DNA of 64,000 bases, taken from assembly GCA_052327205.1 (NCBI GenBank), contig CM126204.1:127038001-127102000 (forward strand), written 5' to 3'. Numbering within the stretch: the stretch's first letter is position 1; the number at the start of each line of letters is the position of its first letter. The notes below the pieces were generated by a model, which was not told where the DNA came from, did no database searches, and saw nothing but the letters and a program-made list of their open reading frames with translations. Below, piece after piece: positions 14,374-62,182 of the stretch. This DNA comes from Somniosus microcephalus (taxonomy: Eukaryota). Position numbers and translations under genes: made by a program.

Positions 14374-15043
14374 TAGGTATTCGTGTTGACCTCTCGGGAC
14401 GAATGCCTACTAAATAATTTAGTTCGAGTTCGGATGAATAATCACTAAGTTGTTTATTAACTGGAACTGACGAAATACAACAGGTAAGCTGGCTTTATAC
14501 AGGAGCAATGCGAGGTAGGTCTTACCCCGACGGGAACTCCACGAGGACTGAGTCCGTAGTCCTCGGGAGAGCGTGATGATGTCATCACGCTTAGTCACGT
14601 TTTCCCGCTCTTCGGATGTCAAGTGACCGCGTCCTGACGCTAGCGCGTTGGCCCGCGCTTGGGGCGGTCACGTGACCCGCGCCGATACGTCGGCGCATTC
14701 ACCCGGTGCGGAGGCTGGCCGTTGAGGCCGAAGTCGCGACCGCGGTAGCAGGAGCTGGAGGCCGAGCTGAGACGGCGCTTGCCGCGGGGGATCGCGTCGC
14801 TCATGTCTGCCAGCCGATGCGGCCGAAGTCGCGGTAGGCCGGGCTGTGCCGGCGGCTGTCGCGCGTACGTCACACAATGCGTGATGTGACGTCAGCGCGC
14901 TAGGGCGCGTCTTAAAGGGGCAACGGCCCCCACAGGTAAGTTAAAGGGGTAATGGCCCAAACAGGTAAGTAATACACGTACAGTTAGGTTAAAGTGAATT
15001 ATATACATTATATGTGTAAGGGACACCCGGTGGAACCACCACA
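14374..15043 (-). repeat. 3' LTR of the non-autonomous element
   Basis: Direct repeat of 24663-25914; CpG-rich; abuts the PPT (minus strand GAATTCTGGGGGGGGCGCA|TG). Confidence 0.9.
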
Positions 15044-15149
15044 TGCGCCCCCCCCAGAATTCGCTTTAACGAAAGTCCAAAGATGAGATGGTCTGACGAG
15101 CAGTTGGTCTCAGTGGGTGTGCTGTCTCGACTTGGCGGGCGAGGTCTGA

Positions 15150-15690
15150 AGATGCTAGTCGTCAGCGGATCCTTACGCACGTCATGGCGAATAAAACGTA
15201 TCCGTCAGGCGAAGGACCGTGGAAACGTGCGAAACAGCAGGCCATGTCAGAGTGACGGGCAGGTCGGGCGGACGCGGGTGATTGCTCTGTTGATGGTAGA
15301 AGTCCTTGTTCTGACGAACTCTGCAGGAACGCCAACCGGGCGATCCAGACGAACTTTACGGGCGAGGTTGGTGAACTCGCCGACAGGTGAGCATAATCGT
15401 TGGGAGCCTGGCACGCACAGAACGGTGCGTACCATAGTGCTACGATGATTGCACAACGGAGAGTGAGCCGTTGCTACACAGAGCAGTGCTCGGTGCGGAC
15501 TGCAACCTTCACGTGGCTGATCGTGGCCGCGGGCTCTCCGTTGGACCCGTCCTCGATGTTTGCTGCGTCAGTAGATGTTTACGTTTGTTAAGGGGGAATG
15601 GGCGGCCGCAGCGAGCGAGTGGCTGAAAAACAGCATCGGCATGTAACGGGCTAGAATGGCAAATGTCGGCCCGCGTCAGGTGCTGTCCAA
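15150..15690 (-). pseudogene. highly decayed RNaseH/integrase relics
   Basis: Minus-strand pieces PMLFFSHSL, RPVGVPAEFV, HGPAVSHV and FIRHDVRKDPL align by eye to [27 protein letters not shown] and FVRRDAHRGPL of the Gypsy at 47605. Confidence 0.65.
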
Positions 15691-15717
15691 GCGTCGGAGT
15701 TGGAGACGGGCAGGCCC

Positions 15718-16094
15718 TTAGTTCCTAGTTCTGATCATTCTGTTGATTCGGTCTTTTCTGTTACCAGCAGCACCAGCCTCAACAAGAGGTATTGTCTTTT
15801 CGTTCATGCCACCACGTGGCGAGGACAGTTTGAAGGGCCACAAGACATCGTTGGCCATGTTGAAGTTCTTGCCGACTGTGTAGATCCCATGGATCAGATC
15901 GCCAATACAAATTATGTCATACTTTCCAAGCTGCGTTGCAATCGAGGCTTTGGCAGTGAAAGCGATGCGCTGGTGTTGGATCTGTCGAAACCACGTTTGT
16001 AAATCAATTCATGGACAGACTTCAGATTTGGATATTCCCATGTAATGTATGGCTCTGCAATACGGAGCATGTTGATTGAAGCTTTATTCATTTT
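15718..16094 (-). pseudogene. RPL7: processed 3' half of ribosomal protein L7 (uL30) inside the LTR element
   Basis: Minus strand reads [34 protein letters not shown] /frameshift/ [59 protein letters not shown]...AGNR /frameshift/ INRMIRTRN*, matching the RPL7 C-terminus with no introns. Confidence 0.92.
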
Positions 16095-16788
16095 TGAATT
16101 TCAGATGCTTCGAAGTGGGAAGGAGCGTTTAGGATGATAGTAGGACTAAAATGTTCACTGGCCTGTGTTGAGCCGCATTTTTTCGAATCCTCATCACTGA
16201 TGGGAGTGACCGAATCGAGTTCTTCATGAGGAAGGCAATTAGAAAAGCCACTGTCCACAGGGTGACGCAACAATTTTACCCCTTTGTAATGATCAATAAC
16301 ATGTCATTCTATAGTGGACACTAGGTGGAGCCGTAGAGCTGTGTAGAGCTGTATATAGCTGTATGTATATAAGACTACACTACCCAGCTGTATGTATATT
16401 AAGACTACATTACCCATGAGGCACTAGGCTACCCACAAGGCAGCAGTCAAGATGGATGCCTCTACAGATACTGTACCTAGTCCACATGTGCTCAATAAAG
16501 TGTCTAGCAAAAGCTAGCTGTGTTCATAATAAGAATGTCTATTTATTAATGAACATAAGATGGTACCAGGATTGGTGAAGATCTGCTGAAAATTGTGAAA
16601 AGCGACATGGAGAATTTGAGGCCACCGGAATTTTTGAATCTCACGGGAAATGTTGACTTCAATTGGCGGACTTTCAAACAACAATTCGAACTCTACATTG
16701 CTGCCATCGGATTCGGTACGAAGCCAGATGCAAGGAAAATAGCGTTGCTGCTCACAGTTGCAGGCCCACAGGCGATAGAGGTATTTAA

Positions 16789-18184
16789 TGAGACAGTAAT
16801 GTAACTGTGGCTTAACCAATGGTGGACAGTACTGTAACTATGGACTAACCAATGGTGGACACAGTGCTGTAGCTGAGGCCTAACCAATGGTGGACACAGT
16901 ACTGTAACTGTGGACTAACCAATGGTGGACACAGGACTTTAACTGTGGAAACCAATGGTGGACACAGTACTGTAACTGTGGACTAAGCAATGATGGACAC
17001 AGTACTGTAACTGTGGACTAACAAATTGTGGACGTGGTACTGTGGACTAACCAATGGTGGACACAGTAGTGTAACTGTGGACTAACCAAAAGTGGACACA
17101 TTACTGTAACTGTGGAGTAATCAATGGTGGACACAGAACTGCAAATGCGGACTAACCAATGGTGGACACATTACTGTAACTGTGGACTAACCAATGAAGG
17201 ACACAGTATTGTAACTGTGGACTAACCAATGGTGGACACAGTACTGTAACTGTGGACTAACCAATGGTGGACACAGTACTGTAACTGTGGCCTAACCAAT
17301 GGTGGACACAGTATTGTAACTGTGAACCAACCAATGGTGGACATGGAACTGTAACTGTGGACTAACCAATGAAGCAGACACTACTGTAACTGTGGACTAA
17401 CCAATGGAGGACACAGTACTGTAACTGTGGCCTAACCAATGGTGGACACAGTATTGTAACTGTGAACCAACCAATGGTGGACACAGTTCTGTAACTGTGG
17501 ACTAACCAATGAAGCAGACACTACTGTAACTGTGGACTAACCAATGGAGGACACAGTACTGTAACTGTGGACTAACCAATGGAGGACACAGTACTGTAAC
17601 TGTGGACTAACCAATGGTGGACACAATACTGCAACTGTGGACTAATCAATGGAGGACACAGTACTGTAAATGTGGAGTAACCAATGGTGGACACAGTACT
17701 GTAACTGAGGACTAACCAATGGTTGACGTGGTACTGTAACTGTTGACTAACCAATGGTGGACTTGGTACTGTAACTGTGGCTTAACCAATGGTGGACACA
17801 GTATTGTAACTGTGGAGAAACCAATGGTGGACGTGGAACTGTAACTGTGGACTAACCAATGGTGGACTTGGTACTGTAACTGTGGACTAACCAATGGTAG
17901 ACGTGGTACTGTAACTGTGGACTAACCAATGAAGGACACAGTACTGTAACTGTGGACTAATCAATGGTGGACACAGTAGTGTAACTGTGGCCTAACTAAT
18001 GTTGGACACAGTATTGTAACTGTGGACTAATCAATAGTGGACATCGTACTGTAGCTGTGGCCTAACCAATGGTGGATATGGTAGTGTAACTGTGGACAAA
18101 CCAATGGTAGACACAGTATTGTAACTGTGGGCTAACCAATGGTGGATGTGGTACTGAAACTGTGGACTCACAAATGGTGGACAC
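16789..18184 (+). repeat. 35-bp minisatellite, about 40 units
   Basis: Unit ACACAGTACTGTAACTGTGGACTAACCAATGGTGG repeated with point variants. Confidence 0.95.
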
Positions 18185-18427
18185 TGTAATGATCAGTAAC
18201 CTGTCATTCTGGAATGGTACACTCGGCGGTGCTGTTTGTATATAAGAGTGAGCTACCCAGAAGGCAGCAGTCAAGATGGATGCCTCTACAGATACTGTAC
18301 CTAGTCCACATGTGCTCAATAAAGTGTCTAGCAAAAGCTAGCTGTTCTTAATAAAAACGACTAGTTATTAATGAACATAACATGGTACCAGGATTGGTAA
18401 GATCTGCTGAATATTGTGCAACTAGAC

Positions 18428-21400
18428 ATGGAGAATTTGAAGCCACCAGAGCATTTGAAACTCACAGGAAATATCGACTACAATTGGCAGACTGTTAAAC
18501 AACAATTCGAACTCTACATTGCAGCCATCGGATTCGGTACGAAGCCAGACGCAAGGAAGATGGCGTTGCTGCTTATGGTTGCAGGCCTACAGGCGATAGA
18601 GGTATTTAATACATTTGTATTTAATCCAGAGGAGAACAGAGAAAAATTAGAAGATGTGCTAAAAAAATTTGATGCACATTGCTCTCCCAAAAAGAATGAG
18701 ACCTATGAAAGATACATCTTCCGTTCTCGGACACAGCAGCAAAATGAGACTTTTGATAGCTTTATAACTGATCTGAAACTGAAAGCACAGACATGTAATT
18801 TCTCTGAGCTCAAAGCATCCATGATTTGTGACCAGATTGTGTTTGGTATTCATGATAAAAAAGTCAGGGAACGTCTGTTGAGAGAAACCGAACTAAATTT
18901 GGAAAATGCTGTGAAAATATGCCAAGCCAGCGAGCTAGCTCGAAAGCACGCGAAGACTTTCAGTGAAATCAATAATGATGCAATTGTAATGAGTGATAAT
19001 GCTGCTGTCGGTGCTGTGTCCTACAAGGGGAAGAAACGTGGGCAGAACAGAAATGAAAAGCAATCGGAGGATGAAATTTTTAATTGTAAACGCTGTAGTT
19101 ACAAACACCAGTTAAGACAATGCCCAGCGTTTGGAAAAATGTGCACAAAGTGTAATGGAAAGAATCACTTTGCCAAACAATGCTTTTCAAAAGTAAAAAC
19201 TAAGGGCAACGAGTTAATGTAATTGAGGACACTGATTTAAGTGAAACATTTTTTGTAGGAATGGTGTCACGTGACAATATCAAAAAGGATACAGAAAATG
19301 TGCAGCCCTCAGAAATGGACAATGCTGAACATAAAGTTAATGCAGTAAAAGAGGACAAATGGATGATCCCACTGCAGGTAAATGGAGCATTAGTTACCTT
19401 GAAACTAGACACTGGGGCAAAAGCAAACTTAATCAGTATGAATGACATTAACAATATGAAAGAAAAGCCCAAAATACAGAAAAAGTCAGTACGACTGAAG
19501 GACTATAATGGACAGAAAATAGATAGCTTAGGTGTATGCAGACTTAAAGTGACAGTCAAAGACAAAGTGCATCATCTCATGTTTTCTGTTGTGGCTGAAA
19601 GACTTGATTCACTACTGGGTGACAAAGCTTGTGAGGACTTAGAACTGGTCAAGAGAGTCTACCATATAAACTGTGCCATAAGCAGACCAGATGACTCGGT
19701 GGATTCTGTAGTGAATAATTTCCAGGATGTGTTCAAAGGATTTGGAGTTCTACCATTCACTTACAAGATCCAGCTAAAGGAGGATGCTCAGCCAGTGGTA
19801 CATGCTCCACGAAGAGTTCCAGCACCCCTGCGTGACCAGCTCAAGAATGAACTGGACAGAATGACCACACTAGAAGTCATCAGGAAAGTCAAAGAGCCAA
19901 CAGACTGGGTTAACTCCATGGTATGTGTAAAGAAAAAGAACAATGATCTAAGAATATGCATGGATCCAAAGGACTTAAATGCAAACGTAAAACATGAACA
20001 CTACCAGATTCCCAAGCGAGAAGAAATCACCAGTGAAATGTCAGGTGCCAGATACTTTGCAAAGCTCGATGCCTCACAAGGATTTTGGCCACTAAAACTG
20101 GATGAAGAGAGCACCAAATACCGTACCTTCAACACACCATTTGGCAGGTATTGTTTCCTCAGAATGCCTTTCGGGATAATATCTGCATCTGAAATCTTTC
20201 ATAGAGCGATGGAACACATAATTGAAGGTCTGGAAGGAGTTCGGGTCTATGTTGATGACATCATCATCTGGGGCTCCACACTGAAAGAACACAATGAGAG
20301 ACTGACTAAAGTGCTACAGAGCATACGCCGGAATGGACTGAAGCTCAACAAAGCCAAGTGTCAGTTTGGCGTCCAGGAAGTCACTTTCCTAGGAGATAAT
20401 CTATCTGGTAAAGGAATAGAGCCAGATATGGAAAAAGTAAACGCCATACTCAAAATGCCCCGACCCACTGACAAAAAAGGAGTGCTACGCATCATGGGGA
20501 TGATAAACTTCATTGGAAAGTTCATCCCTAACTTGTCAGCTAAGACAGCCTGTCTGCAAGACCTGCTACATAAAACAAATGAGTTCACATGGACAGACAG
20601 ACATGAACAAGAGTGGATAAACCTCAAAACAGTGCTGACAACCACACCTGTACTCACCTTCTTTGACCCAACAAAAAGAATCAAAGTGTCAACGGATGCA
20701 TCAAAAGATGGCCTAGGTGCGGTCTAGCTACAAGCAGAGGGTGAAGATTGGAAGCCTGTTGCCTATGCCTCCAGGTCTATGACTGATACTGAGTGTTGAT
20801 ACACCCAGATTGAAAAGGAATGTCTAGGCTTGGTAGTTGGACTAGAAAAGTTTCATGGCTACATATATGGACTTCCCACCTTCACAGTTGAGACAGACCA
20901 CAGCCCTCTGGTTGCCATCATAAAAAAAAACCTGAATGAGATGTCTCCAAGGATTCAACGACTCATGATGAAGCTGCAAAGATATGACTTTGAACTGATC
21001 TACACACCAGGCAACTACATAGTGTTAGCAGATACACTATCCCGAGTACCCACAATGAGTCATGTGAGCTCTACTGAAGAAGATGTGGATGTTCATGTGA
21101 GTATGGTCACTGCTGCGCTGCCCGTGTCAGACACAAAATCAAAGCAAATAGCAGAAGAAACAGTAAAAGATACAGTATTACAAACAGTAATAGAGAACAT
21201 TCATCATGGTTGGCCAAAAGGTTCCTGTCCAAAATATTTTCACATAAGGTCAGAATTGAGTGTCGCAAGTGGACTATTACTAAAACAGAACAGAATAGTC
21301 ATTCCACAGGCTCGACGTCAAGACATGCTCAAAAGGATTCATGAGGGACACCTCGGAATTGAAAAATGCAAAAGGAGGGCAAGAGACACTGTTTATTGGC

Positions 21401-22362
21401 CTGGCATAAATAAGGACATTGAGAGCATGATAGGCAAATGTGAGACATGTCAGAAATACCAAAACAAACAAGCAAAGGAACCAATGATGGTAGCTGACAT
21501 ACCAACAGCACCATGGCAAAAGGTTGGTATGGACCTTTTTCATTTAAATGGTAAAGACTATCTAATAGTGATTGACTACTATTCTAACTATCCTGAGATG
21601 GCGCTGCTCTCAAGCACCACAGCAAGCAGTGTCATAATGCATGTGAAATCCATCTTCGCCAGACATGGAATTCCCAGGATTGCCGTTAGCGACAATGGTC
21701 CGTGCTTCAACTGTAAGGAGTGGCAACAGTTTGCAGCACATTATGACTTTCAGCACATCACATCCAGTCCTTTGTATGCTCAGTCAAATGGTAAGGCAGA
21801 GAAAGGTGTTCAAGTTCTCAAGCAGCTACTGAAGAAAGCGACAGAAAGCAAGTCTGATCCTTATCTCGCCCCGCTGAGCTACCAAGCCTCATCTTTAGAC
21901 TGTGGTTCTTCACCTGCTGAACTACTAATGGGTCGCAAGTTGTGCACCACGCTACCCTGCTGTGCAAAAGAACAGCAAAGTGAGGAACTGAGACAGAGAC
22001 TTCAACTGTTAAAGCTGAAACAGAAATCATACTATGACAAGTCATCCAAAACTCTAAAACCATTGACAAGGGATGATGTTGTCAGGATTGAGGATCCAGA
22101 TGCATGGAACAGGAAAGCTACAGTTCTTGAGGAAGTAGGACCAAGGTCATACACTGTTAGAACTGAGGAAGGACAGATTCTCAGGAGGAACCGCCGTTCC
22201 CTCCTAAAAACACAAGAGACTATTCAAGAGCAGATTGATGACAATGCTGCAACTGCATCTTGTCATTCACCGCCAGAACAATCTCATGAAGACACATCAG
22301 ACTTACCCGTGTTGAGAAGATCCACACGTGAAGTAAAAGAGCCTGATAGACTTAATCTTTGA
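18428..22362 (+). pseudogene. Gypsy gag-pol (gag, CCHC knuckle, PR, RT, RNaseH, IN), disrupted
   Basis: CTKCNGKNHFAKQC, KLDTGA, YVDD, STDAS, HEGH..CETC, SDNGP, NGKAE; frameshift near 19205 and stops near 20725 and 20797. Confidence 0.93.
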
Positions 22363-23154
22363 GTACAATGTAAAGCTTTGAAAATGTGTTGACTGTTTTG
22401 AAAATGTTTATGTTTATAGAGCAATAACAAAAGTGTTACTGATATTATCTTTATTGTTTTCTTGAAAGTTGATTGATATTGATTTTGTTAAACCTCAAAG
22501 AAAGGGGGATGTAATGATCAATAACTTGTCATTCTATAGTGGACACTAGGTGGAGCCGTAGAGCTGTGTAGAGCTGTATATAGCTGTATGTATATAAGAG
22601 TACACTACCCAGCTGTATGTATATTAAGACTACATTACCCATGAGGCACTAGGCTACCCACAAGGCAGCAGTCAAGATGGATGCCTCTACAGAGATTGAG
22701 CAAGGGGGTGTGCATCCTGAGCACCGTCTCTGAATCTTGCCCTACTTGTCTGTTGAGGACTGGGCAATCAATCACACGCATGTCAAAGGCAGATCCTAAA
22801 TGGATGGTTTGTGAGTCTCATTGGCTGTAGCGATGGTGTAAGGAGGCTGAGCTGCGGATTCATCGCAATATTTCCCAAACAAGCCAACCGGAAGGATTCA
22901 CTGAGCGAGACTGCTACGTAGACGCTCTTTTGGGCAATTAACGTTCCGAGTCTGTCTTCCGAAGAAAATGGTCACCGTCATTGCATTAAGTCTCTGAGAG
23001 GCTTCCGGGAACGCCATTTTAAACAGTAGAGCGGACAGAAGTCATCGGTGATGTCTCATCTCAACATTACGTTCAAATCTGTGCCTTGCGGTGCTAAAGG
23101 AACTGGAAGTTAACTAAGCGGACGAGGAAACATTTGTTATTTATTGTCAATTGA

Positions 23155-23424
23155 CGTGCAGCTGTGCCCCCTAGCCCTGGTAGGCAGGTTACTGCTGGAC
23201 TTGGCACGGACCATGCCACTCTTTGAATGAGCACGAGTCTTGTGTGGTTTACCACCAGGAGTGACAGTGCTGTTCTTAGCTTTGTAGACGTAGGCACCTC
23301 TCGTGCCCAGGTAAAGGTCCGTTTCAGCGTGGCAAGAAACCCCCTCAATCTGCAGGAGAGCAGTGTGCTCTCTTTGGTTGCGAAAGCCTCGTTTATAGCC
23401 AGTAAACGCAGTTTTGCAGAACAT
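23155..23424 (-). pseudogene. RPL35A: processed ribosomal protein L35a (eL33) inside the LTR element
   Basis: [77 protein letters not shown]; intronless, with an 8-codon deletion between the two TR motifs; AATAAA just downstream. Confidence 0.93.
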
Positions 23425-23749
23425 ATGGATATTACAAGTCCTGATATCAGTAATGAAACAGTAGAAGGAATAGTAACCTGCTTTCGGTAGGTTTTCTTTC
23501 ACTGTTCCTGTAGGAAGGCTATTCGCTCGGCTCTTGTCAGGTCGTTAAAATCAGAGTGCAGGCTTTCGACCTTCTGTAGCTTAAAACCTGTTTCTAGCAC
23601 GTGCTCTATGGAGAGGAATCGCTTCCGGACCCTTGTGCTGATGGACCAGAGAAAGGGTGGGACAGACCGGGTCGTTGTCGCGGTCGGTGGGGGGAAACTG
23701 CCGGAAGGGCGGCAACGCTGCTTGTCGTTTCTGTTGACTTAGTGAAACT

Positions 23750-24290
23750 ACTGCCGAGAAGGCGGCACGCTTCTCTTACTCGCCGGCAAGTATGATAGGT
23801 AACAAAACCAGCAGGCCGACGGGCTGGTGCGTCGTCGGCGGGGAACGAGTCTTCGTGTTGCATGAGGGGTGGAGCCTCGTGGCTTGCGAGGGATGGGTCC
23901 TCGAGGTTTGCGAGGGGTGGGTCCTTGTGGTTTGCGAGGGATGGGTCCTTGCGTTTCAAGAGGAGCGAGTCCTCGTGTTTGGGGAGGAGCGAGTCCTCGT
24001 GGTTCGCGGGGGTGAGTCCTCATGGTATCCCCGCCAGGCGTGCTCCGATCTTGTGGGCCCGAACATGCTGTACCCCGCGCTTGGAGAGATTTATACTTGC
24101 TGTTGCGTTGGACGTATGGGCGGACGACCCGCATGGCGGTAGAAAAGTCAAACACGGGGGCAGTAAGCAAATGCGTGGTCTGCTCCGCGTCGATGGTCCC
24201 AGCGAACTGGGCTTCTACCTTGCCAAAGCACGAGGGTGGTTGTTTCTCCCTGAAGTGCGGCGGCAACAGCAAAACGGCTGGTGCTTCCAT
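23750..24290 (-). pseudogene. decayed gag of the non-autonomous element
   Basis: MEAPAVLLLPPHFREKQPPSCFGKVEAQF...STAMRV...KYKSL resembles AVSLKLPTFWEHQAPAWFAHTEAQF...STAAEI...KYSTI of gag 47924-48790. Confidence 0.75.
23840..24025. repeat. 24-bp tandem repeat, about 7-8 units
   Basis: Unit GTCCTCGTGGTTTGCGAGGGATGG; gives 8-aa repeats (RKPQGPTP) in the gag-relic frame. Confidence 0.85.
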
Positions 24291-24660
24291 GGTGTGCTTC
24301 TTTTGCGAAAAACGTTCGCAAAATCGAGGTCCGGTTGTTTTTTTTTGTCCGTGAAAAATGTGATCACCTCCAGGCTGTGCTGCCCTTGCGAATACGTTCA
24401 CGAAAATGGGGTCGCCAGGTTCAGGCTGTGTGCTTCCTCCGTGAAAACCGTCCACGGAGTCGGTTGTTCGTCGGTTGTTCGTCGGTCGTCGTCTATGAAG
24501 ACGAGGTTCAGGATGCGCGTTTCTTCCGTGAAAAACGTTCACGGATACGGGGTCACCAATTGTAGTGTAGGAATTGATGAGCACCCGTACTCACATCGTT
24601 GGAGGTGTTGTTGGCTGCGCTTCGGCCGTGAAAAACGTTCACAGTCTCGGGGTCACCAAT
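24291..24660 (-). promoter_or_regulatory. leader with duplicated PBS and repeated stem-loops
   Basis: CTACAATTGGTGACCCCG occurs twice (about 24548-24565 and 24648-24665); five hairpins of type CCGTGAA-CGTTT-TTCACGG. Confidence 0.75.
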
Positions 24661-25914
24661 TGTAGGTATTCGTGTTGACCTCTCGGGACGAATGCCTACT
24701 AAATAATTTAGTTCGAGTTCGGATGAATAATCACTAAGTTGTTTATTAACTGGAACTGACGAAATACAACAGGTAAGCTGGCTTTATACAGGAGCAATGC
24801 GAGATAGGTCTTACCCCGACAGGGACTCCACGAGGACTGAGTCCGTAGTCCTCGGGAGAGCATGATGACGTCATCACGCTTAGTCACGTTTTCCCGCTCT
24901 TCGGATGTCATGTGACCGCGTCCTGACGCTAGCGCGTTGGCCCGCGGTAGCAGGAGCTGGAGGCCGAGCTGAGACGGCGCTTGCCGCGGGGGATCGCGTC
25001 GCTCATGTCTGCCAGCCGATGCGGCCGAAGTCGCGGTAGGCCGGGCTGTGCCGGCGGCTGTCGCGCGTACGTCACGCAATGCGCGATGTGACGTCAGCGC
25101 GCTAGGGCGCGTCTTAAAGGGGCAACAGCCCCCACAAGTAAGGTAAAGGGGCAATGGCCCAAACAGGTAAGTAATACACGTACAGTTAGGTTAAAGTGAA
25201 TTATATACATTATGGCCTAGAAATTGAGTAGCCTTAGTGCCGCATTTGAGGCGCTAGAGGGCCTAGCGCCGGAGTTATGGCCAGTTTAGAAATTCCCTGG
25301 GGCCCTAGAATCGGCGGTAGACCGGTTGCGCTGCGCCGGCACCGATGACGTCATCGGTGTGCGCAGCGTCCCGGTTGCCATGCCGACGGGCCCCAGCGCC
25401 GAAATTCAGTTGCGGCCGCCTCGCCCGTGGCAGCCGCAACTAAGACTCTGGCAACAGAGTCTTACATCAGTTAGCGCCTGCGCCTTAAGGTCGCGCGGCG
25501 GCCGGCCGCTTTCCCGCCGGCCGCCTGCCCGCACCTCCCTCCCCGGACTCCTCCACCCCCCCCCCCGCGGAACAGATGCTTCCGGGCTCATTTTTGAAAA
25601 AATCAAACGGCCAGCGATCGGGTGAAGGCAGCGCCTCCTTAACGGGAGGAGGAGGCCTGCACTTCCCCAGCCTGCCGCACCGCATCGGGTGCCGCAGCGC
25701 CGGATTAGCGCCGCAATGCGGCACTCAGCGCCCATTGGGAGGCACTCACGCCCGCCAGTAGCGCCGGCAGCCATCTGGGCGCGGCGCTACTGAATTTTTG
25801 GCGCGCGCAAGGGAATTAGCGCCGGCGCTAAATTTCCGGCGCTAAAGCCCTGGCGCGGCGTCAACTCAATTTCTAGGCCAAAATGTGTAAGGGACACCCG
25901 GTGGAACCGCCACA
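24661..25914 (-). repeat. 5' LTR of the non-autonomous element (interrupted by a MITE)
   Basis: TG...CA ends; adjacent to the tRNA-Trp PBS TGGTGACCCCGA; lacks an ~85-bp block present in the other LTR. Confidence 0.9.
25214..25879. mobile_element. Harbinger-type MITE
   Basis: TIRs GGCCTAGAAATTGAGT / ACTCAATTTCTAGGCC; absent from the paired LTR; inverted paralog at 53817-54513. Confidence 0.92.
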
Positions 25915-36500: not shown

Positions 36501-37143
36501 TACCAATCTCACAGACTAGCGGCAGTGTTCCAGAGCCACGTCACAATTCAAAACCTGATGCGGGCAGGAGGGAGCAGCTGATTGGGTGAGTACAGCCAGG
36601 TGAGTACTTATACAACTCTATAGTTTGACAGCTAAGGTTCATAGGGCTAGATTTTCAGTTGCTTGCGCCAGCAGTTAGCGCCTTAAGAGAAGTGATTTCC
36701 GGGCGCTATGCGTGTAGCGCCCGGGCGCAGCGCAGTTTGCGCCCCGCCCCAAATTAAGTTGCCCGTTAGCGCCGGCGCAAAGTTTAGCGCCCGCCCGGAT
36801 GCGCGCGCAGAAAATGACGTCACATCCTCGTGCAACGCCCTTTGGCCGCCCCGATTGCAAACTTCAGTCGGACCGCCCCATTGTGCGGCGGGCGGCCGGA
36901 GCGTTTGGAAAAAGGAACGCAACACAACCAGCGCGGGCCCCGGGGGGCGCTAATTAAAGGGAACGTCCTCTCCAGTATAAAGGCCATCCATTATTTCAGA
37001 AAACAGTCTTGTGCAACGCATTTCTGGAGACACAACAAGGAGGATAGCTAACTGGTTTCAAGCAGCAAGAGCCAGGTATTTTTGGACTCAGGCAACAGCG
37101 CTGCAAGTGGCCATTTGGAAATTAGAGTGTTTGCCAGGATTTG

Positions 37144-38304
37144 ATGGGGGTTGCATGGGGTGCCAACGCGGAGCTGCAGCTCCATGTCCGTAGGGCTCGC
37201 AGACGTATTGTGAGAGGGGCAGCCCTGGCTAGAGGCAGAGGGGGCTACAGGCGTCGGCCACGTAGGCCTTACCCAGTCAGGCTATACCGCCAGCAGCGCT
37301 CCTACCTAAACATGAGTGCCGCGCGATGTGTTAAAAGGCTCCGATTCCGGAAGGGGGTGATTGCAGAGATCTGCCACCTGCTTCGCCGAGATCTGCGGCC
37401 AAAGCTCAGGTGCAGGACGTCTCTGTCGGTGGAAGTGAAGGTGACAGTGGCATTGAACTTCTATGCCACCGGCTCCTTCCAATACGCTGCTGGGGACATA
37501 GCAAACATCTCCCAGTACGGCGCGCATCGCTGCATCCGCCAGGTGACCGAAGCACTGTTCAGAAGGAGAAGCCAATTCATCTCCTTCCCCATGGCCCTGG
37601 AGAGCCAGCATCAGCGCGCATTGGGATTTTCCAGACTCGGGGAATTCCCCTTGGTGCAGGGCGCCATTGACTGTACGCATGTGGCTTTGCGGGCCCCTCT
37701 GGAGCATGGCGAGCAGTATCGCAACAGGAAGGGCTACCATTCTCTGAATGTGCAGCTGGTCTGTGACCACAAGCAGCGCATCATGGCAGTCAATGCCAGC
37801 TTCCCAGGCAGCAGCCACGATGCCTTTATCCTGCGGCAGAGTACTGTGCATGACATGTTCCAGGCACAGCCTCCCCCAAGAGGATGGCTACTCGGGGACA
37901 AAGGCTATCCTTTGTGCACCTGGCTCATGACCCCGCTCCGCGCGCCCAGGACCGCTGCTGAAGAGGCCTACAACGAGAGCCATCAAACCACCCGCAACAT
38001 CATCGAGCTAACTATTGGGGTCCTCAAGCAGCGGTTCCGCTGCCTTGATCGCTCCGGAGGAGCTCTCCAGTATTCGCCGGACCGGGTCTCCCAATTTGTG
38101 GTGGTTTGCTGCATGCTACACAACCTGGCTATCCGCAGGACTCAGGCACTGCCACCTGACGTTGGACCAGCACCTCAGGAGGAGGAGCAGGAGGAGCATG
38201 AGGAGGAGGAGGAGGAGGAGGAGGAGGAGCAGGAGTACGTTCCCAGGAGGGAGCGACCAGGGCCAAGGGCCGCACGACGCCACCTTATTACACGGTACTT
38301 CTAA
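37144..38304 (+). CDS. Harbinger DDE transposase (HARBI1-like family)
   Basis: GAIDCTH, YRNRKGYHSLNVQ, PGSSHDAFIL, LGDKGY, IELTIGVLKQRFRCL, CCMLHN; poly-Glu tail; AATAAA at about 38420. Confidence 0.95.
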   Translation: MGVAWGANAELQLHVRRARRRIVRGAALARGRGGYRRRPRRPYPVRLYRQQRSYLNMSAARCVKRLRFRKGVIAEICHLLRRDLRPKLRCRTSLSVEVKVTVALNFYATGSFQYAAGDIANISQYGAHRCIRQVTEALFRRRSQFISFPMALESQHQRALGFSRLGEFPLVQGAIDCTHVALRAPLEHGEQYRNRKGYHSLNVQLVCDHKQRIMAVNASFPGSSHDAFILRQSTVHDMFQAQPPPRGWLLGDKGYPLCTWLMTPLRAPRTAAEEAYNESHQTTRNIIELTIGVLKQRFRCLDRSGGALQYSPDRVSQFVVVCCMLHNLAIRRTQALPPDVGPAPQEEEQEEHEEEEEEEEEEQEYVPRRERPGPRAARRHLITRYF

Positions 38305-47604: not shown

Positions 47605-50600
47605 TGTGGCGCCACATTGGGGAAACACTGTGTGTATGTAGATAAACCTGTATAATCCCCTTTTAACTGCTGTATTCCCCTCCCCCCGCAAGACAGTTGC
47701 AAGCTGAGAGGAATAAGGCATGTTCAGACTTGCCTGCTGCTGAGAGAAGGAAAACCAATCAGGTTTCAGCAGGTGACCAATCCGTGAGTCATCACAGGTT
47801 CGCGGGCTTCACGAATTCAGTACTGTATTGTGAGAGTTGGAGTAAAGACCTATTTCTTGTAGCTCGCTGTGTTGCCTATTTCTTTACGCGGGAGACCGTA
47901 GTCCCCCACATTGGTGACCCCGAATGTCGGCGGCCGAAGCCCCCGACTCACGCAGCCCTACAGAGGCCAGCAACGACCCGACGGCAACCAGCAGCAGCCC
48001 GATGTCGGCCGGCGCCGTGTCCTTGAAGCTCCCCACCTTCTGGGAACACCAAGCACCAGCTTGGTTCGCGCACACGGAGGCCCAATTCACCCTTCGCAGG
48101 GTTCAAGACGATGAAGAAAGGTACCTCCACATAGTCTCAGCACTAGCAAGCTCCACCGCCGCCGAAATTCTCGACCTGCTGGGGAACCCACCACAGACCG
48201 GCAAGTACTCAACCATTAAGGGCCACTTGCTGCAGGCTTACGGCCTGTCCAGTGAGGAGAGGGCCCGCAGGCTTCTCTCACTACCAGGCCTCGGCGACTC
48301 TACCCCGACCCAGTTGATGAGCCGGATGCTTGCGCTCCTGGGCTCGGAACCGCAGTGCTTCTTGTTTCGGGCCCTTTTCCTCAGCCTGCTTCCTCAGCAG
48401 GTACAGACTGCCCTCGTGGGGTCCCCGATCATGGACTGCGTACAACTGGCAGCCGCCGCGGACAAAGTCTTCGCCGTCGCCCAACTCGGCTGTGCAGCCG
48501 CGAGGCTCCCCGACACCACCGAGCGCGCGCCGCCACGCCAGGCCGCAGAACTATGCTACTACCACGCGCGTTTCGGCCACAAGGCCCAACGCTGCAGAGC
48601 ACCCTGCTCTTTCGATCAAACCAATATGGCCGCCCGGCCCAACGCACCAGCCCCGCGCCGCCGCCTAGGCCCGCTCGACCGCAACCCCGCCGCCACGATG
48701 GCCATCGGCACCGCAGGTAAACTGCTTTACATAACCGACTCCCTTTCAGGGCGCAGATTCCTTTGCGACACCGGAGCCCAATGCAGATAATTCCTGCCTC
48801 CCAGCTCGACATCCAGGCAGGCCGCAGCGGCCCACCCCTCGTGGCGGCAAATGGCGCAGCCATCGCTACTTTTGGAAAGCGACGGGCCGAGGTTTGTTTC
48901 AACAGCCAGCGATTTATGTGGGATTTCGTGACGGCCTCGGTGGCACATCCCTTGCTGGGCGCCGATTTTCTTTGCGCCCACAGACTCCTGGTCGACGTCC
49001 GCGACAGGCGCCTGATCGACGCAGCAACTTTCGCTTCACTGGCCTGCCAGCAGAGCAACAGCCCGGCCCTCATCGGGTCCTGCTCCGCCCCGGCGCATGA
49101 TGACTATGCCCGCCTACTCGCAGATTTCCCGAGGCTCACACAACCGACCTTCTCAGCCGCGGCAGTCAAGCATGGTGTTGAGCACCACATCGCCACTACG
49201 GGACCACCAGTGTTCGCCTGGGTCAGATGCCTGGACCCAGCCAAGATGGCGGTGGCCAAGGAAGAATTCACCACGATGGAGAAACTGGGCATCATCCGCC
49301 GCATCGAACAGCCCCTGGTCGTCCCCCCTCCACATTGTGCCCAAGCCGGGCGGTGGCTGGCGCCCCTGCGGTGACTACAGACGGCTCAACGACGCCACCA
49401 CGCCCGATAGATACCCCATTCCGCACATCCAAGACTTCTCGGCACACCTAACAGGAAAGTCGGTCTTTTCCAAGGTCGACCTGATTCGCGGCTACCATCA
49501 GGTCCCCATCCACCACGCAGACGTCCAGAAGACGGCGGTCATCACCCCCTTCGGACTGTTCGAGTTCCTGCGCATGCCCTTCGGGCTCAAGAACGCCGCA
49601 CAGGCCTTCCAACAGCTCATGGACTCCGTCCTACGGGACCTGAGCTTCCTGTTCGTCTATCTGGATGATATCCTCGTGGCTAGTACCAGCAAGGCCGAGC
49701 ACATCGCGCATTTGCGCTCTCTTTTCCAGCGCCTCAGCCAACACGGGCTAATCGTCAACCCGGCCAAATGCCAGTTTGGAGCAGCCCAAATTTACTTTCT
49801 CGGCCACAGAATCTCGCCAAGGGGAGCCATTCCCCTACCTTCCAAGGTGCAGGCGGTGGCGGACTTTCCCCAGCCCACCTCGGTCAAGGCGCTGCAGGAA
49901 TTTTTAGGGATGGTCAATTTCTATCACCGTTTCGTGCCCAAGGCCGCCTCACTCATGCGCCCCCTTTATGAAGCCACCAGGGGCAAAACGGGCAAAGAGC
50001 AACTCACCTGGTCCAGCGAGATGGCGACAGCCTTCCACCAGACCAAAAGCGCCTTGGCCAACGCCACACTACTGGCCCACCCCATCCCGGGCGCCAAGAC
50101 CGCCCTCACCATGGACACCTCGGATTACGCCGTTGGCGCCGTCCAGCAACAGTGGGTTGAAGGCGCGTGGCAGCCACTGGCATTTTTCAGCCGACAGCTG
50201 TGCAAGAACGAGCAGGCCTACAGCACGTTCGACAGAGAGCTCCTGGCCCTGTTCCTGGCAATCTGGCACTTCCGTTTCCTTCTGGAAGGCCGGCTGTTCA
50301 CTGCATTTGTGGACCACAAGCCGCTCACTTTCGCCATGGCCAAAGTAACCGAACCATGATCCGCGCGCCAACAGCGCCAACTCAACTTCATCTCGGAGTT
50401 CACCACGGACATCCGCCACGTTGCCGGCAAGGACAATTTGGTGGCCGACTGCCTCTCAAGACCCTCGCTCCACGCAATGCACCTGGGCGTCGACTACGCC
50501 AGCATGGCGAGAGACCAGGCCGCCGACGCGGAAATCCAGGCCCTCAGGACGTCAACCACCAGCCTCACTCTGGCCGACATCCACTTCCACGCAGCAGGCA

Positions 50601-52254
50601 CAACCCTCCTGTGCGATGTCTCAGTCCCCTCGCCTAGGCCGGTCGTCCCATCCGCCTGGCGCAAGCGAGTTTTCGACATCATCCACGGCCTCTCACATCC
50701 AGGGATGCGTGCGTCTCCGAAACTCATGTCCACCAAGTTCGTCTGGCCTGGACTCCACAAGGATGTGAGAAACTGGACCAACACATGCATGGCATGTCAG
50801 CGCGCTAAGGTCCAGCAGCACACCAAGGCGCCATTGCAGTGTTTCCCGGTGCCCAAGAGGCGTTTCGACCACGTCCACGTCGATCTGGTAGGCCCCTTGC
50901 CACCGTCGCACGGTTTCACACACTTGCTCATGATCGTCGACCGCACCACCAGATGGCCTGAGGCGATTCCCCTCGCCTCCACCACCACGACCGACGTCGC
51001 GCGAGCATTCGTCTCGACATGGGTGGCCCGGTTCGGCGCGCCGACCGACGTATCCTCGGACAGAGGCCCCCAGTTCACCTCCCACTTGTGGAATGCCATC
51101 ACCGCCGGCCTCGGCACCAAGTTCCACAGGACAACAGCCTACCACCCGCAGGCCAACGGGCTCTGCGAGCGCTTTCATCGTTCCTTGAAAGCCTCCCTCC
51201 GCGCCAGCCTGTCCGACACCAGCTGGATCGACAAGCTACCCTGGGTCCTCCTGGGATTGCGCACCGTGCCCAAAGAGGACCTCCGCGCCTCTGCGGCCGA
51301 GATGGTCTATGGCCAACCGCTCAGAGTACCAGGCGACTTCCTCCCCCTGACAACGGAGCCGTGGTCGGCCGCCAGACAGCTTTCCCTGCACCAGGACGCG
51401 GCCCAGCAATTCCGTCCAGTGCCCACTTCGCAACACGGCCCGCAGCCGTCCTACGTGCCTCGAGACTTACGACATGCGGAGTTCGTCTTCGTGCGCCGGG
51501 ACGCGCACAGAGGCCCACTGCAGGCACCATACACCGGCCCCTTTCCAGTATTGGAGACGGGGGACAAAGCTTTTCTTATCGACGTCGGCGGGAAGCCGGA
51601 CCTTATTTCAGTAGACCGCCTCAAACCGGCGCACCTGGACCTCAGCGTCCCGTTTCGGCCGGCTCTTCCCCCATGGCGGGGCAGACCTCCCGCGTTGGCG
51701 GCGGCCCCACAAGAGGACCAAGACACGCCAGAACCTTACTTCCCGGCCGCCGCCCCACCTTCGCCGGCAGCCCATCCAGCCAGCCCACCGGCAGACCAGC
51801 CGCCAGACCAGCCGATGAACCAACCAGCCGACCTCCCAGACAGCCCTCCTCACACGCCAGATGGCTACTACAGCCGCTACGGCCGCTTGGTCAAACCTCC
51901 ACAGAGACTGACTTTTACAGTTAACGAGGATTCTGGGGGGGCGTATGTGGCGTTGCCACATTGGGGAAACACTGTGTGTATGTAGATAAACCTGTATAAT
52001 CCCCTTTTAACTGCTGTATTCCCCTCCCCCCACAAGACAGTTGCAAGCTGAGAGGAATAAGGCATGTTCAGACTTGCCTGCTGCTGAGAGAAGGAAAACC
52101 AATCAGGGTTCAGCAGGTGACCAATCCGTGAGTCATCACAGGTTCGCGGGCTTCATGAATTCAGTACTGTATTGTGAGAGTTGGAGTAAAGACCTATTTC
52201 TTGTAGCTCGCTGTGTTGCCTATTTCTTTACGCGGGAGACCGTAGTCCCCCACA
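47605..52254 (+). mobile_element. full-length compact Gypsy retrotransposon (tRNA-Trp primed)
   Basis: LTRs 47605-47910 and 51946-52254 differ at only a few positions; ACAT TSD; PBS TGGTGACCCCGA at 47912; PPT TCTGGGGGGGCGTA. Confidence 0.96.
47924..51985 (+). pseudogene. Gypsy gag-pol with two frameshifts and one stop
   Basis: LKLPTFW, CYYHARFG..C, FLCDTGA, YLDD, TMDTS, HGLSH..CMAC, SDRGPQF, NGLCER, PYTGPF; lesions near 48788, 49300 and 50357. Confidence 0.93.
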
Positions 52255-53816: not shown

Positions 53817-54513
53817 GGCCTAGAAATTGGGTTTTGGCGCAGCCAGGGCTTTAGCGCCGGAAGTTAGTGCCGGCGCTAAGTCCCCCTGCGCGCGCCAAAA
53901 ATTCAGTAGCGCCGCGCCCAAACGGCTGCCGGCGCTACTGGAGGGTTTCAGCGCCTCCCAATGGGCGCTACCTGCCCCATTGCGGCGCTGTTCCGGCGCT
54001 GCAGCGCCCGATGCGGTGCGGCAGGCTGGGGAAGTGCAGGCCTCCTCCTTCCGTTAAGGAGGAGCTGCCTGCACCCGACCGCTGGCCGTTGACGGCTGAA
54101 TAAAAATGAGCCCGGCACCTCGGAGAAGTGCCGGGCTCGCGGCCCACATGCATCTGTGCCGCGGGGGGGTCTTGGAGGAGTCCGGGGAGGGAGGTGCGGG
54201 CAGGCGGCCGCCGGGGAAGCGGCCGGCCGCCGCGCGACCTTAATGCGCCGGCGCTAACTTCAGCAAGGCACCTTTTACAGAACGTTGCTTGCGGCTGCCA
54301 CAGGCGAGGCGGCCGCAACTCAATTTTGGAGTTCGGGCGGGTTACCACGGCAACCGGGACGCTGCGCACACCGATGACGTCATCGGTGCCGGCGCAGCGC
54401 TACCGGTGCAACGCCGCTTTAGAGCCCCACTCAATTTTTCAAATGGCCATAACTCTGGCGCTAGTCCCTCTAGCGCCTCAAAAGCGGCGCTAAGGCTAGT
54501 GAATTTCTAGGCC
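53817..54513. mobile_element. Harbinger-type MITE (inverted paralog of 25214-25879)
   Basis: TIRs GGCCTAGAAATT / AATTTCTAGGCC, ATA TSD, internal homology to 25214-25879. Confidence 0.93.
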
Positions 54514-54585
54514 ATAGAGTTTTACAGCACAGAAAGAGGCCCTTCGGCCCATCGTGTCTGCGCCGCCCATCCCTCCCTGTCCAGT

Positions 54586-58377: not shown

Positions 58378-58709
58378 AAAGAAAGAACTTGCATTTATAT
58401 AGCGCCTTTCACGACCTCGGGATGTCCCAAAACTATTTACAGCCAATGAAGTACTTTTTGAAAAGTAGTCACTGTTGTAATGTGGGAAACACAGCAGCCA
58501 ATTTATGCACAGCAAGTTCCCACAAACAGCAATGTGATAATGACCAGATAATCTGCTTTAGTGATGTTGGTTGAGGGATAAACATTGGCCAGGACACCGG
58601 GGATAACTTTGAAATAATGTCTTTTATGTCCACCTGAGAGGGCAGACGTGGTCTCAGTTTCATGTCTCATCAAAAAGACGGCACTTCCAACAGTGCATCG
58701 CTCCCTCAG
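58378..58709 (-). mobile_element. Deu-domain SINE interrupted by a Gypsy LTR
   Basis: Reverse complement of 95-430; cut at CTCCCTCAG|TGTAATG. Confidence 0.85.
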
Positions 58710-61682: not shown

Positions 61683-62182
61683 GGCCTAGAAATTCAGTGG
61701 GTTGCGCCAGCCGCTAACGCCATAAAAGGGCTATATTTCCGGCGCTAGACACTTAGCGCCTGAACGCAGTCCGATCTGCGCCGACGCCCAAATTCAGTTG
61801 ACATTTAGCGCCGGCGCAAAGTGTTTGCGCCCGCTCAGGTGCGCGCGCAGCTTATGACGTCATATCGTCGCGCAACGCTGTTTGTGCGCCCCAAACCGGA
61901 AATTCAGTGGCGCCCGCCCAATGTGGGCGTGGCACTGCTAAGAACTGTGAGGTGGAACGCAAAAGAGGCCCTGTGGGCCTCGGGGAGCGCAAATTAAAGG
62001 GCACTTACACTGACCTATAAAGCCCAGCCATTTTGCTGCAATGACTTTACTGCTTTGGATTTCTGGACAGAGACCAAGGGACAGAGGTTACAGATTTGGG
62101 ACAACATAGGAGAGGTATTTTTGGCTTCTGGCCAGTGCTTTGACATTTGATTCATTGTGATTTATCTGTTCTCAACTTTATT

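What the first reader, a model, noticed from the sequence alone, without database searches (positions are those of the whole stretch)
14374..25914. Non-autonomous LTR element that has replaced most of pol with captured ribosomal-protein mRNAs (RPL35A and RPL7)
Seen, in minus-strand order: LTR, Trp-PBS, leader, gag relic, protease relic, RPL35A, unknown DNA, [nested Gypsy], unknown DNA, RPL7 3' half, RNaseH/IN relics, PPT, LTR. Both host pieces are intronless and in the element's sense orientation. The cargo and gag/pol are heavily diverged, yet the LTRs differ only by scattered substitutions, one block indel and a MITE. Established: LTR elements can capture host mRNA by template switching during reverse transcription, and ribosomal-protein mRNAs are abundant substrates. 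Inference: the captures long predate this insertion, so a cargo-bearing family has been copied repeatedly in trans by a helper, rather than two processed pseudogenes landing here independently.
Basis: partly seen in the sequence, partly recalled or inferred. Interest (0 to 1): 0.9.

Follow-up and report, generated by a model that had tools for sequence, protein, structure and literature searches.

The report
Shark retrotransposon stacking six-gene RNA mosaic
This is one of about 80 copies of a broken shark retrotransposon that carries spliced pieces of at least six host sequences, not just two ribosomal-protein genes; it likely gathered them one after another by jumping between RNAs while being copied, and one piece likely came from a circular RNA.

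Summary
The LTR element, both ribosomal-protein pieces and the multi-copy family are real. At least 81 cargo-bearing loci were found; 37 of 40 with both ends located have their own 4-bp target duplication. The anatomy is richer than reported. The 'protease relic' is BEST4 plus ARID4A mRNA, the 'unknown DNA' is ARID4A 3'UTR plus BEST4 coding tail, and the start of the 'RNase H relic' is NF1. A short piece comes from an unidentified locus, and a stub is left of an insert that begins with CSTPP1. Intermediate forms survive in the genome: no cargo; BEST4+CSTPP1; +ARID4A; +whole RPL35A; and, separately, NF1+RPL7. The window's type is a recombinant of the two lines. ARID4A and NF1 are circularly permuted, about one turn each, and the ARID4A join runs exactly from a splice-donor-like site back to a real upstream acceptor (back-splice). 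Cargo is non-coding (pN/pS 0.66-1.38) and gained about 8% lineage changes with an AT-to-GC bias. The mechanism (template-switch capture) is known from Bs1, fly and mouse; the depth, preserved history and one-turn cargo make this a notable variant.

The parts
24661..25914 (-). 5' LTR (lacks an 87-nt block present in the 3' LTR; interrupted by a MITE)
   Evidence: LTR-LTR K2P 2.2% over 556 sites
25211..25879 (.). MITE with terminal inverted repeats, inserted after integration; relative at 53817-54516
24648..24658 (-). primer-binding site, same 11 bases as in two coding-type relatives; a second PBS-like copy lies about 100 nt downstream
   Evidence: tRNA-Trp assignment from recall and PMC2582038
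23700..24290 (-). degenerate gag, with relic of the CHCC knuckle near 23740-23807
   Evidence: tblastn to gag of coding-type relatives, E=6e-8; relative's gag is Pfam DUF7041
23544..23653 (-).
   Evidence: 92.6% and 86.8% to host exons at C3:329.410 and 329.412 Mb; bestrophin PDB hits for the matching frame of L068
23506..23554 (-). ARID4A penultimate-exon piece (remnant of the permuted ARID4A cargo; the back-splice join itself is deleted in this subfamily)
   Evidence: 87.8% to C12:86109930-86109978; gene name
23408..23508 (-). about 100 nt from an unidentified AT-rich locus at C14:88.476 Mb
   Evidence: 91% over 101 nt, E=3e-38
23131..23418 (-). RPL35A mRNA (exons 3-5 to the poly(A) signal; 24-nt family deletion; private 41-nt deletion)
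   Evidence: 11.3% from host
22926..23123 (-). ARID4A 3'UTR
   Evidence: 83% to C12:86112110-86112309
22874..22939 (-). stub of the 369-nt insert X, whose first 108 nt are CSTPP1/C11orf49 last exon and 3'UTR; host source of this stub itself not located
22694..22873 (-). BEST4 3' coding exons, part 1 (exon-exon join at 22777)
   Evidence: 91.8% and 90.5% to host exons 11 kb apart; BEST4
16285..22693 (+). nested composite Gypsy insertion (LTRs 98.9%; 35-bp satellite inside), replaces about 60 nt of BEST4, no TSD
16091..16283 (-). BEST4 3' coding exon, part 2; ends at the recombination point between the two cargo lines
   Evidence: 84% to C3:329435522-329435714
15715..16094 (-). RPL7 mRNA 3' half (three host exons joined, through the stop codon, frameshifted)
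   Evidence: 94.8, 86.1, 90.1% to C7:163.44 Mb exons
15591..15714 (-). NF1 exon piece (remnant of the permuted NF1 cargo)
   Evidence: 84.7% to C22:56294356-56294234; NF1
15056..15590 (-). pol relic: post-protease stretch and integrase C-terminal pieces only
15044..15055 (-). polypurine tract
14374..15043 (-). 3' LTR, terminal CA missing

Best explanation
The stretch is a copy of a non-autonomous Ty3/Gypsy-type LTR retrotransposon whose interior is a stack of spliced host RNA pieces, likely captured one at a time when reverse transcriptase, supplied in trans by a coding relative, jumped onto co-packaged host RNA and back. Shown: order and host origin of the pieces, intermediate forms, independent insertions. 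Inferred order: cargo-free deletion element, then BEST4 (+CSTPP1 insert), ARID4A into that insert, whole RPL35A into ARID4A, then deletions and the C14 piece; in a sister line NF1, then RPL7 into NF1; then a switch between the two lines at BEST4/RPL7 gave the window's type. The ARID4A donor was likely a back-spliced circular RNA. The one-turn length of the ARID4A and NF1 cargo would follow if RNase H destroyed the donor behind the enzyme and forced it off where it had entered. The cargo is a passenger with no coding role.
For: Exon-exon joins at host splice sites in BEST4, ARID4A, RPL35A, RPL7, NF1, all in element sense. Intermediates: L009 and 7 of 19 sampled family ends without cargo; L087; L088-L091; L068; B types; L085. 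4-bp TSD in 37 of 40 copies with both ends located. Short shared sequence at capture borders seen directly: 7 exact bases at ARID4A>RPL35A, 8 at element>NF1, 5 of 6 at RPL35A>ARID4A, NF1>RPL7 and the NF1 internal join. Segment trees disagree: tail groups A, C, D with F (FastTree 0.998), BEST4 3' groups them with B (0.977 within, F has none). ARID4A join identical in position in L088, L090, L068: donor GT after C12:86112375, polypyrimidine/AG acceptor before C12:86109930; normal upstream exon ends in a different base. 4 reads of RNA run X8 cross this join in sense. pN/pS 1.38, 0.95, 0.66, 0.80.
Against: No null test of the border microhomologies was completed, and some are short (2-3 bases at BEST4>CSTPP1 and RPL7>NF1). 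The helper is not identified: coding-type relatives share PBS and PPT region but only 70-85% in short stretches. S1, S3 and F stages rest on one copy each. Insertion ages overlap across stages (L068, an early structure, has LTRs only 2.45% apart), so the order is structural. The RNA reads are 4 in 1 of 2 runs, may be one molecule, and their alleles were not listed. The UTR donor matches only 6 of 9 consensus positions. The NF1 closing join is not at splice sites.
Confidence: 0.85

Rival explanations
1. LINE-made processed pseudogenes inserted one after another into one DNA copy of the element, which then spread.
For: The genome is rich in CR1-type LINE frames and has free RPL35A processed copies with A-rich 3' ends. 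The CSTPP1 insert sits between a 4-base duplication in BEST4.
Against: Pieces replace sequence rather than add to it (RPL35A replaces 171 nt of ARID4A, ARID4A about 260 nt of X, NF1 about 45 nt of element); most stop mid-exon with no poly(A); all are in element sense; RPL35A ends just after its poly(A) signal with no tail.
Confidence: 0.05
2. Capture by template switching is right, but the permuted ARID4A piece came from linear RNA: two switches on pre-mRNA or mRNA made a chimera that was later spliced forward inside the element's own transcript, or a trans-spliced RNA was the donor.
For: The NF1 permutation closes at a 3-base microhomology, not at splice sites, so permutation can arise without back-splicing. 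Exon skips inside BEST4 cargo in L088 show the cargo was remodelled after capture. Dong et al. note other routes to non-colinear joins.
Against: Entry and exit fall within the same roughly 24-nt ARID4A motif, as expected of one turn of a circle; no intron sequence survives in any of 5 copies with the join; the crossing RNA reads fit host alleles (2 differences in 60, last base unclipped) better than L088/L089, L091 or L068.
Confidence: 0.3
3. The mosaic is kept by selection for the host or the element (chimeric protein, regulatory RNA, or cargo that helps packaging or evades silencing).
For: The double-cargo types are the largest group (48 of 76 classed); an RPL35A-derived frame of about 135 codons is open in many A copies; lineage changes are directional (CpG gained 36, lost 5).
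Against: pN/pS near 1; RPL35A lacks its start and 8 internal codons, RPL7 is frameshifted, the BEST4 tail frame is preceded by a shared stop. Cargo forms are a minority: 0 of 19 sampled of 2439 motif matches. No conserved island in the cargo; no Rfam match.
Confidence: 0.1

Closest known systems
LTR-mediated retroposition in animals (Tan et al. 2016, PMC5131818; passages and supplement hits seen)
   Same: Partial spliced mRNAs replace internal element sequence, microsimilarity at borders, multi-gene chimeras (mouse 'Super': four genes plus an Alu in MERVL), secondary retroposition.
   Different: Here 6-7 donors, about 80 loci, five structural stages still in the genome, and recombination between two cargo lines; the word 'circular' does not occur in that paper's main text.
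Maize Bs1 (as described in PMC5131818 and PMC13317346 passages)
   Same: Non-autonomous LTR element with pieces of three host genes, shared switch points among copies.
   Different: Bs1 has 1-5 copies and forms a translated chimeric frame; this cargo is non-coding and in a vertebrate.
Mouse circRFWD2-derived pseudogenes (Dong et al. 2016, PMC4897178; whole main text read)
   Same: Back-splice join fixed in genomic DNA, many copies (33-42), no poly(A), LTR sequence (MMERVK10C-int) beside them.
   Different: That paper calls the mechanism mysterious; here the permuted piece sits inside an LTR element between microhomology borders, spans about one turn, and was later overwritten by further captures.
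CsRn1 clade of Ty3/Gypsy (PMC2582038 passages)
   Same: tRNA-Trp-type PBS, 4-bp TSD, CX2HX9CX3C gag knuckle in coding-type relatives and as a relic here.
   Different: That paper describes the clade from trematodes and insects; no RT tree against named members was built here.

Membership tests
Non-autonomous LTR retrotransposon | Paired LTRs with TG...CA ends, PBS, PPT | tested here: met
   (window copy has lost its last CA)
Non-autonomous LTR retrotransposon | Integrase-type TSD at independent sites | tested here: met
   4-bp TSD in 37 of 40 copies with both ends located; absent in the window copy
Non-autonomous LTR retrotransposon | No intact gag-pol; RT absent | tested here: met
Non-autonomous LTR retrotransposon | Mobilised in trans by an identified helper | tested here: inconclusive
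   coding-type relatives share PBS and PPT region, 70-85% in short stretches only
LTR-mediated retrocopy (Tan 2016 / Bs1 type) | Intronless host pieces replacing internal sequence, in element sense | tested here: met
LTR-mediated retrocopy (Tan 2016 / Bs1 type) | Microsimilarity at switch points above chance | tested here: inconclusive
   seen at most borders; no null test completed
LTR-mediated retrocopy (Tan 2016 / Bs1 type) | No poly(A) or TSD around the cargo | tested here: met
   exception: 4-base duplication around the CSTPP1 insert
LTR-mediated retrocopy (Tan 2016 / Bs1 type) | Co-transcribed from the LTR | not tested
circRNA-derived pseudogene (Dong 2016) | Non-colinear join at exact donor and upstream acceptor | tested here: met
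   ARID4A in L088, L089, L090, L091, L068; not met for NF1; join deleted in the window copy
circRNA-derived pseudogene (Dong 2016) | Parent circRNA expressed | tested here: inconclusive
   4 crossing reads in X8, 0 in X7, alleles not listed
CsRn1 clade | Trp PBS, 4-bp TSD, CHCC gag motif | tested here: met
   CHCC intact in relatives, relic here
CsRn1 clade | RT/RH/IN phylogeny with named members | not tested
   no reference sequences in hand; element lacks RT
LINE-made processed pseudogene | 3' poly(A) and flanking TSD on each piece | tested here: not met

The most novel reading that the evidence does not exclude
The family is a fossil record of retroelement particles copying circular and linear host RNAs: reverse transcriptase enters a donor at a microhomology, goes round once and is forced off at the entry point because RNase H has consumed the template. 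That would give a mechanism, and a 'one-turn' signature, for circRNA-derived pseudogenes, and show a vertebrate LTR line that stacked seven host RNAs and shuffled them between sister lines.
Probability: 0.4. Interest if true: 0.8.

Novelty: new variant of a known kind. Interest (0 to 1): 0.62.

Why it matters
Gene capture by LTR elements is usually seen as single end products. Here the steps survive side by side, so order, junctions, recombination between cargo lines and the mutation pattern of repeated retrotransposition can be read directly. The ARID4A piece ties circRNA-derived pseudogenes to template switching inside an LTR element, a mechanism left open in the mouse report, and the one-turn pattern is testable in vitro and in other genomes. 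Practically, about 80 loci give false RPL35A, RPL7, BEST4 and NF1 hits: 49 of 51 matches to an RPL7 query and 71 of 84 to the RPL35A profile are this family.

Tried and rejected
Reading 23430-23700 as protease: rejected (host exon matches). My own first guess that the open frame in the 'unknown DNA' was a second protease: rejected; Pfam gave nothing and it is the BEST4 tail. RT/RNase H relics: none found. Structured RNA in the element: no Rfam match at E<=0.5. The C14-derived piece looked unusually conserved but is not beyond other windows. Host source of the right part of insert X: not found among 40 scored of 69 candidates. Coding-type elements inside the BEST4 intron and downstream of RPL7 are taken as chance, given 2439 motif matches. 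Run search: no RNA holder listed for window 22694-24662; X4 contigs gave nothing on the join. Earlier scan notes: none for this genome. A null test for border microhomology was not completed. No paper found on such a family in sharks (0 papers; none of the 10 listed mention the genus) or on circRNA capture by template switching; subscription papers are not covered, and the supplements of PMC4897178 and file 1 of PMC5131818 were not seen and may bear on precedent.
Full report
Setting. The window is G000:C3:127038001-127102000 of a 6.45-Gb assembly. Host proteins match shark records best: a CSTPP1 exon is 98% identical to a record labelled as a sawshark, ARID4A 96-100% to sharks and rays.

The element. 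LTRs lie at 14374-15043 and 24661-25914 on the minus strand, 97.8-97.9% identical, with one 87-nt block indel and a MITE; K2P 2.2%. PBS and PPT match those of coding-type Gypsy relatives. A composite Gypsy on the plus strand (16285-22693, LTRs 98.9%) interrupts it and replaces about 60 nt. Without the two later insertions the element is about 4.6 kb, the size of uninterrupted copies.

A family. The LTR search gave 4300 candidates, 40 scored, all 96-100%. The two cargo regions gave 94 and 87 candidates. Pooling the BEST4-tail and RPL35A hit lists plus two places, after dropping host exons and free processed copies, gives 81 loci on 22 contigs, a lower bound that includes a few likely segmental duplicates (L023/L024, L040/L103, L088/L089). 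Of 76 fetched copies that could be classed, 60 have two LTRs; 40 had both termini located and 37 of these show a 4-bp TSD. A 17-base motif beside the PPT has 2439 exact matches, control 0. In a systematic sample of 19 from the first 100 listed (one place already known as a family copy was replaced by its neighbour), none carried cargo in the 1.15 kb before the motif: 7 were cargo-free deletion elements, 10 ended in integrase, 2 were broken by other repeats. Cargo lines are thus a small part of a larger clan.

What the cargo is. BLAST against fetched host loci resolves the window interior, in element order: gag relic; BEST4 (two exons); ARID4A exon piece; about 100 nt from a locus at C14:88.476 Mb (91%); RPL35A exons 3-5; ARID4A 3'UTR; a stub of insert X; BEST4 3' exons; RPL7 3' half; NF1 exon piece; pol relic. 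Names rest. Host exons kilobases apart are joined at splice sites. So the 'protease relic', both 'unknown' stretches and the start of the 'RNase H relic' are host mRNA. Six donors are matched directly in the window; a seventh, CSTPP1, is matched only in the first 108 nt of X in L087, and the source of the stub that remains in the window was not found.

Preserved history. L009 and relatives: gag joined to pol end, no cargo. L087: seven BEST4 exon blocks with 369-nt X inserted. L088-L091: ARID4A replaces the middle of X. L068: whole RPL35A mRNA, exon 1 to poly(A) signal, replaces 171 nt of ARID4A; L065-L067 are deleted forms. B (19 copies): further deletion plus the C14 piece, no RPL7. Separately L085: NF1 with RPL7 replacing its middle, no BEST4. 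A, C, D (48 copies with RPL7 sequence, the window among them): B-like left arm, L085-like right arm, joined at BEST4 C3:329435714 / RPL7 C7:163437866. Trees on 25-27 chosen copies disagree by segment as recombination predicts: the tail puts A, C, D with F (0.998); LTRs put D with F (0.996) but A and C with B; the gag arm puts C with B copies L070/L074 (1.0) (FastTree, midpoint root, no formal clade test; the tail alignment is affected by unequal deletions). RPL35A cargo is one clade (13 of 13 rows, SH-aLRT 99) apart from five free copies. The order is read from nesting; insertion ages overlap (median LTR-LTR K2P: S1 7.0, S2 6.6, B-like 5.0, A/C/D 4.3, F 3.4, S3 2.5%).

Borders. Seen directly: 7 exact shared bases at ARID4A>RPL35A, 8 at element>NF1, 5 of 6 at RPL35A>ARID4A, NF1>RPL7 and the inner NF1 join, about 4 at NF1>element, 3 at RPL7>NF1, 2 at BEST4>CSTPP1, imperfect 12-17-base likeness at both X/ARID4A borders. 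No poly(A). No null test was completed, so 'above chance' is not shown here; it is shown for this class in PMC5131818.

Permuted cargo. ARID4A runs 86112288-86112375, then back to 86109930 and through two exons to 86112311: one turn with about 24 nt overlap. The closing join is GT donor to polypyrimidine-AG acceptor, the acceptor being the real exon start; the normal upstream exon ends in another base, so microhomology with the ordinary mRNA does not explain it. The donor is only a 6-of-9 consensus match. Five copies keep the join; the window's subfamily has lost it. NF1 starts at 56294238, runs on for three exons, jumps back to 56304680 and ends at 56294234: one turn, 5 nt overlap, closed by a 3-base microhomology, not by splicing. 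RNA laid on the 60 bases around the ARID4A join: in X8, 4 of 6 reads cover it whole, one strand, 95-99% alike, last base unclipped; in X7, 0 of 2. A host circle would differ at 2 of 60 with the last base matching; L088/L089 differ at the last base, L091 and L068 at 9 and 6. This fits a circle made today, but alleles were not listed, the reads may be one molecule, and an allele of L090 is possible. DNA contigs of X2 hold the join in three records. Inference: RT that enters a donor degrades it behind itself and must leave near the entry point after one turn.

Rate and spectrum. Cargo-to-host K2P: BEST4 4.3-5.0% in S1/S2, 9.4% in B, 12.5% in A; RPL7 6.0% in F, 7.1% in D, 10.1% in A; window 10.9-17.4% against LTR-LTR 2.2%. 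Where early copies equal the host, A carries 120 shared changes in 1497 columns (8%), AT>GC 68 against GC>AT 34, A>C 23 against T>G 7 (p=0.017). Private changes run the other way, 176 against 462, a third at CpG (Fisher p=8e-14). The gap in insertion age between S1/S2 and A/C/D medians is about 1% per LTR, so the mobile line changed several times faster than resting DNA; many rounds of error-prone copying are the likely cause. pN/pS of shared changes is 1.38, 0.95, 0.66, 0.80 for BEST4, RPL35A, RPL7, NF1 on few sites: no clear coding constraint.

Known work. Template-switch capture, multi-gene chimeras and secondary copying are described (PMC5131818, passages; supplement row for mouse 'Super'; Bs1 also in PMC13317346, passages). 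Back-splice joins in LTR-flanked mouse pseudogenes are described with mechanism open (PMC4897178, whole main text). Clade marks fit CsRn1 (PMC2582038, passages). Searches (listings only beyond those four papers) found no report of this family or of one-turn cargo.

Verdict. Real, richer than reported, a new variant of a known process. Shown: anatomy, donors, copy number, intermediates, back-splice-type join. Inferred: template switching, helper, circular donor, RNase H reading.

Noticed in passing
window 47611-52254 (+): Young coding-type Gypsy (LTRs 99% alike) with the same PBS and CHCC-type gag (Pfam DUF7041); pol broken into several frames; its LTR is not similar to this family's.
   Followed up: partly
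window 16285-22693 and 58707-61683 (+): Nested Gypsy is composite: LTR and gag start, a 35-bp satellite of more than 30 units (about 16790-18250), then a second LTR piece and gag-pol; a 92% relative lies 40.5 kb away.
   Followed up: partly
L085:5461-6399 (-), G000:C1:381.195 Mb: Single copy with an open frame of 313+ codons made of two NF1 mRNA segments in swapped order, followed by RPL7.
   Followed up: partly
L063, G000:C18:40680749-40681048 (+): Intact intronless RPL35A copy 1.7% from the host gene, outside this family; seven further free processed copies at 3-13%.
   Followed up: partly
L107-L108 (C3:329413.5-329417.9 kb) and L086 (C7:163454.8-163459 kb): Coding-type relatives of the family sit antisense in a BEST4 intron and about 12 kb past the RPL7 exons; probably chance given their number.
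   Followed up: partly
window 37126-38304, 62144-63328; MITEs 25211-25879 and 53817-54516: Two Harbinger-like transposase frames (by recalled motifs, not scanned) and two related MITE copies.
   Followed up: no
L085 and L088/L089 flanks: Two different subfamilies show nearly the same 8+8 bases around their TSD; possible site preference or shared repeat.
   Followed up: no
L006, L007, L011, L013, L014, L017, L020 and one in L009: 8 of the 20 loci fetched from the LTR hit list show a lone family LTR with no internal sequence beside it (solo LTRs).
   Followed up: no
L145, G000:C14:88.476 Mb (-): AT-rich donor of the 100-nt piece; gene not identified, likely UTR or non-coding RNA.
   Followed up: partly
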